Positions 28,021 to 44,547 of a stretch of DNA of 64,000 nucleotides are shown in pieces; within the stretch, counting starts at the first letter, position 1; every line of letters begins with the position of its first letter. The position numbers and the translations under genes were made by a program. The notes under the pieces were generated by a model. It had not been told where the DNA came from and did not search any database. It was given only the letters and a program-made list of their open reading frames with translations. Origin of the DNA: Ignavibacteriota bacterium (GTDB lineage: Bacteria; Bacteroidota; Ignavibacteria; UBA10030); contig CAVSHO010000011.1 of assembly GCA_963727825.1 (NCBI GenBank), positions 151,854 to 215,853 of the forward strand. The letters are read 5' to 3'.

Positions 28021-28520
28021 AAAATGTACTCTACATCGATTTTCAGTTCCATTGTGTAATTACCGGGCATAATGTCTTCAAGGCCTGAAAGTTGTCCTCC
28101 CACCCACAGATAATACTCTCCCCTATCACTCAGCTTGACTTCATTCTGCGTGAGAAGGATCGATTCCTTCTGGATATTATAAGTATTTCCGCTGACATTG
28201 TAGGTGAAGAAAAGTTGCGATTGGCCGTTTTCGTGCCGCAGAATCGATTGTTTTTCATTTGTAATCCGCACGAGACTGTTCGGAGAGCCGACGATTTTTA
28301 TCATTCCAGAATGCAAGTCTCTTTGTGGGTCAATATTGAGATCTGTCGGCGAGAGATTGCCAACTTCAAATTCCAGGTCCTTCATCACAATCAGATCTAC
28401 ATTGCCAACAACATTTGCGGAGGCAGTGATCCTTGCCACAACCTGATCCGTATTTTGTGCTTCTGCAATGTACCCGATAAGCAAGCTGATCGCAAGTAAA
28501 TATGTCAAATATTTTATCAT
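28017..28520 (-). CDS. DUF4402/SCPU-like pilin subunit (167 aa)
   Basis: Signal peptide LLAISLLIGYIAEAQ; ITASANVVGNVDLIVMKDLEFEVGNL, YYLWVGGQL and C-terminal PGNYTMELKIDVEYIL. There is a 4-nt overlap with the giant gene stop. Confidence 0.55.
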   Translation of the reverse strand: MIKYLTYLLAISLLIGYIAEAQNTDQVVARITASANVVGNVDLIVMKDLEFEVGNLSPTDLNIDPQRDLHSGMIKIVGSPNSLVRITNEKQSILRHENGQSQLFFTYNVSGNTYNIQKESILLTQNEVKLSDRGEYYLWVGGQLSGLEDIMPGNYTMELKIDVEYIL

Positions 28521-31500
28521 TTAAGTACAACCATTTTTTTAGTTTGTGTTTTTTCTGCCGCGGTCATCCTGCAGAAATATACGCCGCTGGCAACATTTGA
28601 TGCATTCCACACCACGAGATGATTCCCGGCTGAGTATTCCTGATCAGTCACAGTGGCGACTTGCTGGCCCAGGATATTGAATACCCGGATCGTTACGCGC
28701 GTTTGTGCTGGAATTGAAAAAGTAATGTTCGTCGTCGGGTTAAACGGGTTCGGATAGTTCTGTGCCAGTTGAGGAGTAGTCGGAAAATATCCTGACAAAC
28801 TATTGTTTGCCGAGACAACCAGACGGAAACGGGACTCTGAAGCGCTGCTCTTCGCTAATTTGGCAGCGGGAACTGTCTGCACGACAGGCTGTGGTAATGC
28901 ATGTAATGATTGACGATTCGATGCAACACCAGATCCCTTTTGTAAAAGACTACTGCTCGACGATATCAAGTCGGCTGGTGTAGTGTACTGGAATGTCAGG
29001 TCGCCCGCTTCTATCATTGAGGCCGCTGTCCCGGAGACATCGTCCATAAGAAAGATGTTCCAGCCAACAGGAAGCTGTCCGTTCAAATTCCAACTAAGTG
29101 TAAATGAGCCGTTAAACGGTTGACCACCAACTGTCCCGCCAACGTACAACGGAAGTGTGAACGGTTGAACAAAACCTGTATCGGGTAAATTCTGGATTTG
29201 CATAGCGGGCTGGCCCGTTCCGGCAACAGAGTAAAGTATTAAATAATTATCAGAGAGCGGAACCAAACTGAACGCATCGTACGGATCGTATGTTATCTTT
29301 CCGCTGGGGCTGAACATCAAGTACGCTTGCGTTTGAAGCCCATTAGCTGAGAGCTCTAATTCGAGAACAGGCGCCGAATCATTGATACCCAAACTTTTCT
29401 TGTCGGATGTGTTTTTTGCAAGTGAGGCCGGCTTCGCGATGCTCGTGCTTTTCTTCCCGGCAGAATCCGGCGAGACAGATGCCAACGTGCCTTTACCTGC
29501 AGATTTCTTTCCGAGGAAGTTGCCCCCTGTCGCTTTCACTCTATTGTCGCATTTCAGTGAGGGACTGGCGGCGTTTGCTTTCACCCAGAATGCTTGAAAT
29601 GGTGTTATCAATCCACCTGTAATATTTCCCGTTGAGCCATTCCAATATTTGTAGTTGCTCGTGGCTGGATCCCAAATATAAATTGTTCCATCAATGTTCG
29701 TCTTTGTCCACCCTGACCCCGCATTCCAATTGATCGTGGAAGGAGTCGGGTTGCCGACCAGGTTCCAACCTCCATCGATAGAGTCGATATCTGTAAAAGT
29801 TTTGCTTTTTGATGTATCATTGGAACCTACCGGCGTCGCAGTGACGCCAAAATCGAATGCCGAGGTTAGCAGATTCTCCGTACCTGTGGCAGTCATCGTT
29901 AGCGGAAGGACATCGCTGTAATTGCTGGCTATATCAGGTCTGAGCGCACCATTAAATACATAGTACATGTATCCCCTTCCCAACTTAACGGCAACGGAAT
30001 CCATTCTCCACGCCTGCAACGATGTGCCCTGACTCGTTTCATCCCACCACAGCAGATTGGGTTGCAGAGAGGGATAACTCGATCCCGTAAAGCCCTGTGT
30101 GACGAAGGGTGCTGCAAACATTGAACTGACTGTTACGCTATCGGGAGCGGCGAGCATGCGCCATCCTTCGGTTCCGGTTATCGTGTACATCACCTGAAGT
30201 GTAGGTGCACTGCTGCTGAGGTTGATATAGTTCGATCCTTCATTGATAATTATTTTTCCTGCGGAAATAGAAGCGCCGGATTCGATTTTGAGATTTGAAC
30301 CGGAACCGATATATACATTGTTGGTCACACTAAAACTATTATTATTATCAAACGATCCACCATTGTCTACTATTAAACTCGTAATTGTTACACTGGTGTT
30401 TAAAGTGTCTGCAAAATTATTGCTGATATGTACCGTATCAATTGACATCGGCACCCTATAATTCCAGGTAGCAGCGTTACTCCAATCTCCGCTTGCAATT
30501 GAGGTAATTAGAAGAGGCATAATATTTATGCCACCTATTGTAAAGAAATGATTATCGAGGTTTACGAGTGTCGAAGTGGCAACCGTACCCGAAGTCTGTC
30601 CATTGTCAGTAACAACCTGACCGACAGCATTCCAAGGAATAAGCCATTCGACCACCCTTGTAAGAGCGCGTGTTGATGCCGAGCTGCTCATTCCTGTGTA
30701 TTGGTCCCAGCTTAAAACAACATTTGCGCTTCCACCTGATGGACCAATAATATTCCAATATTCATTATTCACAACTGATTGTAATGGAGATACCATCTGT
30801 GTAGTGTTATATCCAGCGGTTGTAGGATCCTTATCAAAAAATTGTGCCGTCCAAGTTTGTGTTCCTGAAGTAGAAGTGCTATTTACTGAAACATATCCAA
30901 TCCGGTTTCGGCTTGAGGAATTTGCATCTCCAACCGGAAATTGGAACGATGAGCCATTAATTATTTTCTTACTTAGCGGCCCGTTTACAAATGAATTATC
31001 GCTTCCACCAACAACAGCACTTGAACTTGTATTGGTAATAGTCAGGATATTGTTGGCAATGTTATTAAAATTAATGTTTCCCAATGTCAGCAGAAGCTGA
31101 TCGCTTATATCAACAGTTCCGGTATTAATAGTTAGTCCCGCAGCATTATTTATTTCGAGGTCATAGAATGTCTCTTTCATAGAATTACCAGACATCAAAA
31201 TACTTTGTGCTGCCGAACCGCTGAAATGCACAGCACCTGTTCCAGCAGTAAAGCCAGCAATACTCGTGTTTTGATCAATCCAGTTTCCAAGAACGAAAAG
31301 GTCTTTATTGTATAGAGTATTATCCAATCTGCTGCCATCAGAAATTGTTATGTTGCCATTTATCTTTGTATCAACGCTACTGATGTACTTTTTGCCGGTT
31401 CCTGAGAATATTACTTGTTGATAAGGTTTATTTATATTTCCCGGATTTAAAGGCATTGTGCCATCAGTGTTCCCATAAAACTCAACAGTACTTGGTAAGT

Positions 31501-43741: not shown

Positions 43742-44547
43742 CCAAAGTTCCTGTTGCGTTTCCAGTTATCTGAGAATCCGCCATCGGCAAGTGTGCCGTT
43801 GAGCACCGATAAATTATTACTCACCGTTGTTGCCGCGCTTAATGTGACACCAGCGCTGTTGTTGATCGTAAGATTAAGTGGTGTAGTTGATGTTAATCCA
43901 TTTCCGGTTACTTGGGCTGCTGTACCATTGTAAATGTAATTTGCTCCTGCAGTATATGTTCTTGTAGTAGTCTGAATATTACCTGTAGCTCCTGCTGTTG
44001 AAATACCGGCTGTTGAACCAACTTGAAGTGTAGCGGTTGCTGCATTGATAAACACACCAGCGCCACTTATAATCCCGGCTGGTGGCATAACAAGTGTACC
44101 ATTGTTAGTAAAAGTATTTGCAGCATTTCCTTCCGTAACAGTTCCATTGACAGTCCCTGTAGCTGTCGCTGCGAGTGTAATATTCGGCCTAGTACCATTT
44201 GTGTTATTCAATGTGAAGGTCTTTGAAGCAGCTACACTGAATGTTGTGCTGATAGTAATAGTATTCCCATTTGCAGAAGCTGCAAAAGTACAGGTTCCGT
44301 TAATAGTCAGACTATTTAAAGTTATCGTTGGTACTGCTGTAATATTGCCCGTTTGATCGGCGGGAATAATTACATCATCACCCGTAGTTGGTACCGTGCC
44401 ACCCCAATTGGCCGCTGTAGTCCATGCACCGCCTGTTGTCGGACTCCAGGTTCTAGTTGCTGCCATTACCGTTGCGCCAATGAACACAACCATCACCAAC
44501 AGAACGTTCAGTGCATGCGATATATGATATTTCTTTTTCATTACCAA
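43621..44547 (-). CDS. N-terminal fragment (signal peptide plus first module) of the same giant adhesin, separated by a multi-indel zone
   Basis: MKKKYHISHALNVLLVMVVFIGATVMA signal, then TRTWSPTTGGAWTTAANWGGTVPTTGDDVIIP (the same module-start motif). The last ~50 aa are frame-garbled relative to the homologous repeat at ~42450-42650. Confidence 0.75.
   Translation of the reverse strand: MVMKKKYHISHALNVLLVMVVFIGATVMAATRTWSPTTGGAWTTAANWGGTVPTTGDDVIIPADQTGNITAVPTITLNSLTINGTCTFAASANGNTITISTTFSVAASKTFTLNNTNGTRPNITLAATATGTVNGTVTEGNAANTFTNNGTLVMPPAGIISGAGVFINAATATLQVGSTAGISTAGATGNIQTTTRTYTAGANYIYNGTAAQVTGNGLTSTTPLNLTINNSAGVTLSAATTVSNNLSVLNGTLADGGFSDNWKRNRNFGCCQRSYLADRRRHRNKNFVPNKLYTTAHITLVATSTVIL

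What the first reader, a model, noticed from the sequence alone, without database searches (positions are those of the whole stretch)
28517..44547. A ~5,340-aa T9SS-sorted beta-helix adhesin is transcriptionally fused to pilin genes
One gene, broken in this assembly, spans 16,031 nt. It encodes a signal peptide and at least six modules, each opening with a tryptophan motif: TRTWSP..GAWTTAANWGG, TGNWSTASNWQS, SGDWNNASSWTS, SGPWNNANTWST, SGNWNDATVWSP, SGDWSNAATWNY. These are followed by long G/T/N-rich beta-solenoid-like repeats and a Por_Secre_tail-type C-terminal domain (..NPFNPTTNITFSIP..GVYFCRMTA..). Its stop overlaps by 4 nt the start of a DUF4402-like pilin gene, and two more pilin-like genes follow. 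This implies co-expression of a T9SS cargo with subunits expected to use a chaperone-usher route. Coupling of two different surface-assembly pathways in one operon is unusual and may indicate a fibre-plus-giant-tip or anchor arrangement.
Basis: partly seen in the sequence, partly recalled or inferred. Interest (0 to 1): 0.68.

Follow-up and report, generated by a model that had tools for sequence, protein, structure and literature searches.

The report
T9SS giant adhesin joined to chaperone-usher pili
A 5,340-residue surface adhesin exported by the type IX secretion system sits in one co-regulated gene cluster with a complete chaperone-usher pilus machine, and this pairing recurs in 47 of 53 testable loci from species-representative genomes of several related phyla and appears undescribed.

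Summary
On the minus strand, 44541..28517 encodes one ~5,340-aa secreted protein. It has six Trp-motif modules and a type A T9SS sorting domain. Six frame changes, all within ~330 nt of a repeat copy, break the reading frame. Its stop overlaps (ATGA) the start of a DUF4402-like gene.

Downstream lie three minor subunit genes (S1-S3), a major subunit gene (S4), a chaperone with a PapD-like predicted fold, and an usher with a FimD/PapC-like predicted fold plus a C-terminal TPR domain.

Two sigma-54-type promoters with identical upstream repeats drive adhesin-S1-S2-S3 and S4-chaperone-usher. A kinase and a sigma-54 activator are encoded divergently.

What is conserved is not the beta-helix but the last ~590 aa: an unannotated ~500-aa module (Cmod) plus the sorting domain. 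Of 53 loci from species-representative genomes with enough flank, 47 show this module followed by S1, chaperone and usher. These genomes span Ignavibacteriota, Bacteroidota and Balneolota. The N-terminal passenger varies from ~540 to 5,340 aa.

Best reading: a pilus whose large adhesin is exported separately by the T9SS and then docks on it. Docking itself is inferred. Mfa5 and CupB5 are precedents, so this is a new variant of a known kind.

The parts
46028..47407 (+). NtrC-type response regulator and sigma-54 activator, transcribed divergently from the cluster
   Evidence: Pfam Response_reg, Sigma54_activat (235 bits) and HTH_8. The same synteny is seen in L001.
45167..45979 (+). Histidine kinase (HisKA plus HATPase_c), likely partner of the activator
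   Evidence: The same synteny is seen in L001.
44924..45099 (-). Promoter region P1. It holds the palindrome TGTATCATTATGATAC (45099..45084), the repeat TTCTCATTATGAGTCA (45022..45007) and the sigma-54-type -24/-12 motif TGGCACGTAGATTGA (44938..44924).
   Evidence: Each motif occurs exactly twice in the window, with 0-0.3 expected by chance. The region aligns with P2 and with both L001 promoters.
28517..44541 (-). Giant adhesin gene, ~5,340 aa once repaired: signal peptide, six Trp-motif modules, the Cmod module, and a T9SS sorting domain
   Evidence: pN/pS is 0.20 against the 95%-identical contig L007 over 2,263 codons.
43466..43803 (-). Cluster of six frame changes inside repeat copy 1
28751..30289 (-). 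Cmod: a conserved, cluster-specific module of two globular regions and a K/S-rich linker, with no Pfam or PDB sequence relative
   Evidence: It is 35-76% identical across syntenic loci while the N-terminal parts differ. There are 293 cluster representatives at E<=1e-30, and in the listed hits the match lies near the C-terminus. No Pfam or PDB match.
28520..28750 (-). Type A T9SS C-terminal sorting domain
   Evidence: PF18962 47.3 bits; TIGR04183 48.4 bits
28017..28520 (-). S1: secreted 167-aa DUF4402-like subunit, a paralogue of S4, translationally coupled to the adhesin
   Evidence: DUF4402 25.0 bits. hhalign against S4 gives probability 98%. ATGA overlap.
27406..28020 (-). S2: secreted 204-aa minor subunit with a conserved Pro-rich insert
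   Evidence: Weak DUF4402 hit. It follows S1 in nearly all loci, and it follows orphan Cmod genes in L014, L018 and L088.
26809..27437 (-). S3: ~209-aa minor subunit, broken here by a 1-nt deletion near 27078
   Evidence: Intact in L001 and L007
26252..26428 (-). Promoter region P2, with the same three motifs at the same spacing as P1 (162 and 85 nt against 161 and 84 nt)
25657..26181 (-). S4: 174-aa putative major pilus subunit
   Evidence: 14 of 20 aligned S4 sequences match DUF4402, best E 7e-12. The C-terminus reads ..FSVEYK. A hairpin follows the gene.
25575..25612 (-). 16-bp terminator-like hairpin after S4, a likely attenuator that sets the subunit-to-machinery ratio
   Evidence: A hairpin of -15 kcal/mol or stronger lies in this spacer in 57 of 57 loci, with differing sequences.
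24642..25490 (-). Periplasmic pilus chaperone with a PapD-like predicted fold
   Evidence: AF2 pLDDT 84.8. Nearly all of the top 50 Foldseek PDB hits are chaperone-usher (CU) chaperones, including CfaA, SafB, EcpB, CsuC, Caf1M and FimC.
21127..24384 (-). Outer-membrane usher with an added C-terminal YbgF-like TPR domain
   Evidence: AF2 pLDDT 81.8. The top 18 Foldseek hits are FimD/PapC, E 4e-30 to 2e-14. The TPR domain matches 2xev at TM 0.87.

Best explanation
The region encodes an adhesive organelle built by two export pathways.

**Shown**
- A complete chaperone-usher machine is present: a chaperone, an usher carrying a periplasmic TPR tail, a major subunit S4 and minor subunits S1-S3.
- A giant secreted protein with a type A T9SS sorting domain is encoded directly upstream.
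- The two sets share translational coupling and two matching sigma-54-type promoters. A kinase and a sigma-54 activator are encoded next door.
- Across FCB-group phyla, a conserved ~500-aa module (Cmod) just before the sorting domain co-occurs with the pilus genes, while the N-terminal passenger is freely exchanged.

**Inferred**
- The adhesin is too large to pass an usher pore, so it crosses the outer membrane through the T9SS and its sorting domain is removed.
- Cmod then docks on the pilus through S1-S3.
- The pilus therefore acts as stalk or anchor, and the exchangeable passenger acts as the binding end.
- The hairpin after S4 keeps the major subunit in excess over chaperone and usher.
- The frame changes are more likely consensus errors in a repeat than true decay.
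For: **Components**
- T9SS sorting domain above both curated cut-offs.
- Chaperone fold.
- Usher fold.
- S1 and S4 are homologous DUF4402-type secreted proteins.

**Coupling in the window**
- ATGA overlaps join adhesin to S1 and S1 to S2.
- No terminator-like site lies at the junction.
- The duplicated promoter architecture is conserved in L001. The kinase and activator sit next door.

**Coupling across genomes**
- Synteny holds in Ignavibacteriales, Kryptonia and Cognataquiflexum.
- 47 of 53 loci with at least 7 kb downstream show Cmod-CTD followed by S1, chaperone and usher on one strand. The median gap between Cmod-CTD and S1 is 36 nt.
- Cmod is 35-76% identical while passengers differ in length and domains.
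- Distant CU clusters that lack Cmod also lack S2 and S3.

**Other support**
- Hairpin after S4 in 57 of 57 loci.
- pN/pS of 0.20 for the giant gene.
- Precedent: Mfa5 needs the T9SS and is found in Mfa1 fimbriae (PMC7835359).
Against: - No direct evidence of contact between Cmod and any subunit.
- The pilin fold and donor strand of S1-S4 were not modelled.
- S1 falls 0.2 bits under the DUF4402 cut-off, and S4 of this window has no Pfam hit of its own.
- The usher reaches only 18.7 bits on Pfam Usher, against a cut-off of 27.1.
- The -12 element reads TTGA rather than TTGC.
- T9SS core genes are not in the window.
- Six of 53 loci break the pattern.
- Type A sorting-domain cargo is usually tied to the cell surface or released, which needs no pilus.
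- The adhesin and S3 genes are broken in this assembly.
Confidence: 0.55

Rival explanations
1. Co-regulated but physically separate. The adhesin is exported by the T9SS and fixed to the cell surface or released, as for other type A cargo. The pili are assembled independently. The shared operon and regulon only ensure that both adhesion devices appear together.
For: The sorting domain is an ordinary type A domain. The CU machine looks self-sufficient, and distant versions exist without any such adhesin. The major subunit, chaperone and usher have their own promoter.
Against: Co-regulation alone does not explain a ~500-aa module that stays 35-76% identical next to S1 in 47 of 53 loci while the functional passenger is swapped. 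It also does not explain why S2 and S3 appear only with Cmod, or why orphan Cmod genes keep an S2 gene.
Confidence: 0.28
2. S1-S3 are not pilus subunits. They are accessory factors for export or anchoring of the giant T9SS cargo, in the way sprC, sprD and sprF accompany sprB (from my own knowledge). Only S4, the chaperone and the usher would make a pilus.
For: S1-S3 share the adhesin's transcription unit and are translationally coupled to it. S2 and S3 show only weak or no similarity to S4. Orphan Cmod-plus-S2 pairs exist.
Against: S1 is a clear paralogue of S4 (probability 98%). All four have Sec signal peptides and pilin-like C-termini ending in ..EY... Minor-subunit paralogues are normal in CU operons.
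Confidence: 0.1
3. The cluster is decaying in this organism. The adhesin and S3 are true pseudogenes, and nothing functional is made here.
For: Six frame changes in the adhesin, none at a homopolymer. One frame change in S3. An arabinofuranosidase-like gene elsewhere in the window is also split into two ORFs.
Against: All six changes fall within ~330 nt of a repeat copy, whereas 15.2 kb of ORF stays open. pN/pS is 0.20 against L007. The related contig L007 is visibly rich in indels, which fits consensus errors in this type of assembly.
Confidence: 0.12

Closest known systems
Mfa1 fimbriae with Mfa5, Porphyromonas gingivalis (type V pili)
   Same: A large multidomain adhesin with a T9SS sorting domain is encoded in the pilus operon. 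It needs the T9SS, whereas the pilins use another route, and it ends up in the fimbria (PMC7835359).
   Different: Those pilins are lipoproteins polymerised after gingipain cleavage, with no chaperone or usher. Here S1-S4 have signal-peptidase-I-type peptides without a Cys, and a chaperone and an usher are present. Mfa5 has a vWF domain and no Cmod.
CupB pili with CupB5 and the P-usher CupB3, Pseudomonas aeruginosa
   Same: A chaperone-usher operon that also encodes a large non-pilin beta-helix-type adhesin normally handled by another secretion pathway (PMC3031594).
   Different: CupB5 is TpsA-like and depends on an usher with a POTRA domain. Here the cargo carries a T9SS domain, and the usher's extra domain is a C-terminal TPR, with no POTRA hit.
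Archaic (sigma) chaperone-usher pili, Csu of Acinetobacter and CupE of Pseudomonas
   Same: Small subunits, several minor subunits, one chaperone and one usher. CsuC is among the best structural matches of the chaperone.
   Different: No SCPU or Csu sequence signal in the subunits. The tip adhesin CsuE is a pilin-domain protein exported through the usher, not T9SS cargo.
SprB-type giant T9SS adhesins of gliding Flavobacteria (from my own knowledge)
   Same: A very large repetitive T9SS cargo co-transcribed with small accessory genes.
   Different: SprB has a type B sorting domain and PorP/SprF-type partners, with no chaperone or usher. Here the domain is type A.

Membership tests
T9SS type A cargo | C-terminal sorting domain above curated cut-offs | tested here: met
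   PF18962 47.3 bits (cut-off 27); TIGR04183 48.4 bits (cut-off 23)
T9SS type A cargo | N-terminal Sec signal peptide | tested here: met
   MKKKYHISHALNVLLVMVVFIGATVMA, read from the sequence; no predictor was run
T9SS type A cargo | T9SS core genes (sprA, porV, porU, gldKLMN) in the same genome | not testable with these tools
   None among the window ORFs scanned.
Chaperone-usher pathway | Periplasmic chaperone with two Ig-like domains (PapD-like) | tested here: met
   AF2 pLDDT 84.8. Nearly all of the top 50 PDB fold hits are CU chaperones, E about 1e-8. No sequence-level PDB hit.
Chaperone-usher pathway | Outer-membrane usher fold | tested here: met
   The top 18 fold hits are FimD/PapC, E 4e-30 to 2e-14, over up to ~930 aligned columns for the full-length ushers
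Chaperone-usher pathway | Pfam Usher (PF00577) above the gathering score | tested here: not met
   18.7 bits against 27.1, over 54 residues only. A few homologues carry a precomputed PF00577 hit.
Chaperone-usher pathway | Subunits with an incomplete Ig fold and an N-terminal donor strand | not tested
Only sequence features were seen: a signal peptide and a C-terminus reading ..G.Y.G....V.Y(N/K).
DUF4402 (PF14352) | Score at or above the gathering cut-off of 25.2 bits | tested here: inconclusive
   S1 25.0 bits, S2 19.8 bits, and S4 of the window has no hit. 14 of 20 aligned S4 sequences match, best E 7e-12.
Archaic sigma pili (Csu/SCPU) | SCPU-type subunit domain | tested here: not met
   No SCPU hit at E<=0.1 in S1-S4 or in 20 aligned S4 sequences
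Type V pili (FimA/Mfa) | Lipoprotein signal peptide with Cys on the pilins | tested here: not met
   The signal peptides of S1, S3 and S4 end in ..A-Q and that of S2 in ..AQK; none has a lipobox Cys
P-usher systems (CupB) | POTRA domain on the usher | tested here: not met
   No POTRA family in the Pfam scan of the usher
Sigma-54 promoter | -24 GG and -12 GC at the right spacing, with an activator nearby | tested here: inconclusive
   TGGCACG-N4-TTGA occurs twice, so -12 reads GA rather than GC. It is conserved in L001, L007 and L011, and is canonical (TTGCA) in L016. The activator gene is adjacent.
G8 / beta-helix adhesin | G8 or beta-helix profile match | tested here: inconclusive
   G8 scores 23.3 bits against a 22.9 cut-off at residues 46-102. 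A second hit has E 0.048, just after the third Trp motif. Module 3, the only module searched, has no PDB sequence relative.

The most novel reading that the evidence does not exclude
This would be an undescribed class of hybrid surface organelle, widespread in Bacteroidota, Balneolota, Ignavibacteriota and Kryptonia. A DUF4402-type chaperone-usher pilus would carry an exchangeable adhesin that is exported separately by the T9SS. The adhesin would be plugged on outside the cell through a dedicated ~500-aa docking module and the adaptor subunits S1-S3. It would also be the first chaperone-usher pilus characterised in these phyla, which are known for type V pili.
Probability: 0.45. Interest if true: 0.82.

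Novelty: new variant of a known kind. Interest (0 to 1): 0.66.

Why it matters
Bacteroidota are textbook users of type V pili and the T9SS. I found no paper describing chaperone-usher pili in them in the searched library.

A conserved docking-type module on T9SS cargo, tied to a pilus machine in well over a hundred species, would show how cells mount adhesins too large for an usher pore onto a fibre. It would give a tractable case of cross-talk between two outer-membrane export routes, because several carriers are cultured. It would also assign a role to DUF4402 and to a large family of unannotated C-terminal modules (293 cluster representatives at E<=1e-30).

Tried and rejected
**Searches that found nothing**
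- Sequence and profile searches of the PDB for the chaperone, S1, S4, usher, Cmod and a passenger module. For the usher query, only its TPR tail matched.
- Pfam on Cmod.
- A metagenome scan with the N-terminal 247 aa, meant to settle the frameshift question, gave no close relative; the best was 45% identity.
- DUF4402 and PF14352 appear in no paper in the library.

**Readings considered and rejected**
- Type V pilins: no lipobox.
- Csu/SCPU membership: no hit.
- P-usher: no POTRA.
- Homopolymer sequencing error as the cause of the six frame changes: none sits in a homopolymer. Consensus error in a repeat remains the favoured cause.
- The three tandem 134-153-aa genes downstream as subunits: no match to the S1-S4 profiles.

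**Limits on other scans**
- The sigma-70 promoter scan was no better than shuffles (30 found against 24.9 expected) and was ignored.
- Sigma-54 control is lineage-specific. The motif precedes S4 in only 4 of 57 loci.
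Full report
**1. The observation.**

The feature lies on the minus strand. The ORF listing gives 44547..43621 (308 aa) and 43741..28517 (5,074 aa), which overlap in different frames.

Translating all frames shows that the sensible reading hops between frames six times, between about 43773 and 43510. 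This stretch is the 5' part of copy 1 (43800..43176) of a direct repeat. Copy 2 (42589..41970) is intact, and the copies are 92% identical overall and nearly identical in their 3' 340 nt.

The modules these motifs delimit are homologous.

The C-terminus is a type A T9SS sorting domain by both Pfam and NCBIfam. The beta-solenoid claim rests only on composition and a marginal G8 hit. It is plausible but not shown.

The TGA stop overlaps the ATG of the next gene (ATGA, 28520..28517). That gene overlaps the following one in the same way.

**2. What follows the giant gene.**

Four small secreted proteins are encoded downstream:
- S1: 28520..28017
- S2: 28020..27406
- S3: 27437..26809, broken by a 1-nt deletion but intact in relatives
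- S4: 26181..25657, after a 630-nt spacer

S1 is at the DUF4402 threshold. It is a clear paralogue of S4 (hhalign probability 98%). Fourteen of 20 aligned S4 sequences match DUF4402.

All four have signal-peptidase-I-type signal peptides; those of S1, S3 and S4 end in A-Q and that of S2 in AQK. All four have a tyrosine close to the C-terminus, as ..EY.. in S1, S3 and S4 and ..NYSTYP in S2. None has a lipobox Cys. A C-terminal tyrosine of this kind is typical of chaperone-usher (CU) pilins (my own knowledge).

The 282-aa protein (25490..24642) has no sequence relative in the PDB. Its AlphaFold model (pLDDT 84.8) matches almost only pilus chaperones.

The 1,085-aa protein (24384..21127) has only a sub-threshold Pfam Usher hit. 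Its model (pLDDT 81.8) matches FimD and PapC at E down to 4e-30. Its tail matches the YbgF TPR domain. In homologues this tail is replaced by SPOR or OmpA domains, so these ushers seem to be tethered to the cell wall.

A 16-bp hairpin follows S4. An equivalent hairpin, with different sequence, is present in all 57 related loci examined. This is the usual way of keeping a major pilin in excess.

**3. Regulation.**

A sigma-54-type motif, TGGCACG-N4-TTGA, occurs exactly twice in the window. One copy is upstream of the giant gene (44938..44924) and one is upstream of S4 (26266..26252).

Both copies are preceded by the same palindrome, TGTATCATTATGATAC, and by TTCTCAwTATGAGTCA. The spacing is the same: 161 and 84 nt at the first promoter, 162 and 85 nt at the second. 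The whole layout is conserved at both positions in the orthologous locus L001.

A histidine kinase and an NtrC-type sigma-54 activator are encoded divergently.

So adhesin-S1-S2-S3 is one unit, and S4-chaperone-usher is a second unit under the same control. This regulation is lineage-specific: the motif precedes S4 in 4 of 57 loci.

**4. Comparative evidence.**

Neighbourhoods of S1 and chaperone homologues show the same order in Ignavibacteriales, unclassified MAGs, Kryptonia and Cognataquiflexum aquatile: a protein bearing a sorting domain, then S1-S4, chaperone and usher.

The upstream proteins range from 723 to 1,883 aa and differ in domains. L001, for example, has Invasin_D3. Yet their last ~590 aa align with the giant protein at 35-76% identity. 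This module (Cmod, ~500 aa) plus the sorting domain is the conserved core. Cmod has no Pfam or PDB relative.

A scan of one genome per species with Cmod alone found relatives in 156 stretches, and the best 80 loci were kept. Profile scanning of their six-frame ORFs gave these results:
- 47 of 53 loci with at least 7 kb downstream have S1 within 1 kb, plus chaperone and usher, all on the same strand and in the same order.
- Complete Cmod proteins span 541 to 3,666 aa, apart from one 176-aa ORF, and truncated ones exceed 3,900 aa.

In 1.84 billion representative proteins there are 293 relatives at E<=1e-30. In the listed hits, Cmod lies near the C-terminal end of proteins of 510 to 4,360 aa, apart from a few shorter fragments.

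Distant CU clusters without Cmod also lack S2 and S3. Orphan Cmod genes keep an S2 gene.

**5. Mechanism.**

Shown: the parts, their folds, their coupling and their co-occurrence.

Inferred: the adhesin cannot pass an usher, so it leaves through the T9SS. Cmod then docks on the pilus through S1-S3. The variable passenger is the binding end.

The main rival is co-regulation without contact. That rival does not explain why Cmod is conserved and linked to S1-S3 while the passenger is swapped.

**6. The frame changes.**

Six changes fall within ~330 nt of a repeat, whereas 15.2 kb stays open. pN/pS is 0.20 against a 95%-identical contig. Both points argue against old decay. A consensus error is more likely, but the changes are not at homopolymers, so a recent real lesion cannot be excluded.

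**7. Comparison with known systems and novelty.**

Mfa5 (PMC7835359) and CupB5 (PMC3031594) show that a large adhesin using another export route can belong to a pilus operon. The present system differs from both:
- It has chaperone-usher rather than type V pili.
- It uses the T9SS rather than two-partner secretion.
- It has a dedicated conserved module.

No paper in the searched library describes it. I rate it a new variant of a known kind.

Noticed in passing
window 721-10760: A low-GC stretch (0.33-0.38 for most of it) lies near tRNA-Asp (1867-1942) and ends at tRNA-Arg (10686-10760). It holds two tyrosine recombinase genes (721-1770, 4757-5839) and a phage-type DnaB helicase gene (6915-8270). 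It looks like an integrated mobile element.
   Followed up: partly
window 2646-4215 (-): An arabinofuranosidase (ArfA-like) gene is split into two overlapping ORFs (2646-3362 and 3313-4215). This looks like another frameshift in this assembly.
   Followed up: no
window 18434-20548 (-): Three tandem paralogous genes for small secreted proteins (134-153 aa, ~90% alike) lie just downstream of the usher. They match neither Pfam nor the S1-S4 profiles. L001 has 166-, 172- and 92-aa genes at the same place.
   Followed up: partly
window 26500-26665 (-): A GC-rich insert of ~150 nt with internal inverted repeats sits in the S3-S4 spacer. It is absent from the orthologous spacer of L001 and is single-copy in the window.
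   Followed up: partly
window 21127-21500 (usher residues 954-1084), and homologues P0211, P0214, P0247, P0275, P0282: Ushers of this family carry a variable C-terminal periplasmic domain: YbgF-like TPR here, and SPOR or OmpA in relatives. This suggests attachment to peptidoglycan, which classical ushers lack.
   Followed up: partly
L080, L081, L082, L085, L086, L087, L090 (Balneola); L022, L037, L075: Some genomes carry two tandem Cmod-plus-sorting-domain adhesin genes. In L082 and L037 the second is followed by S1 and S2, as if alternative adhesins serve one pilus.
   Followed up: no
L014, L018, L088: These loci hold orphan Cmod-plus-sorting-domain genes followed only by an S2-like gene, with no chaperone or usher nearby. 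L088 comes from the same MAG as the full cluster L016.
   Followed up: no
L007 (contig_49652, 95% identical to window 14627-35354): This is a closely related contig in which the giant gene and the usher are chopped into many ORFs by indels. It illustrates how error-prone assemblies of this lineage can be.
   Followed up: partly
window 54252-55604 (+): A protein with a GWxTD domain (TIGR04514, 87 bits) of unknown role.
   Followed up: no
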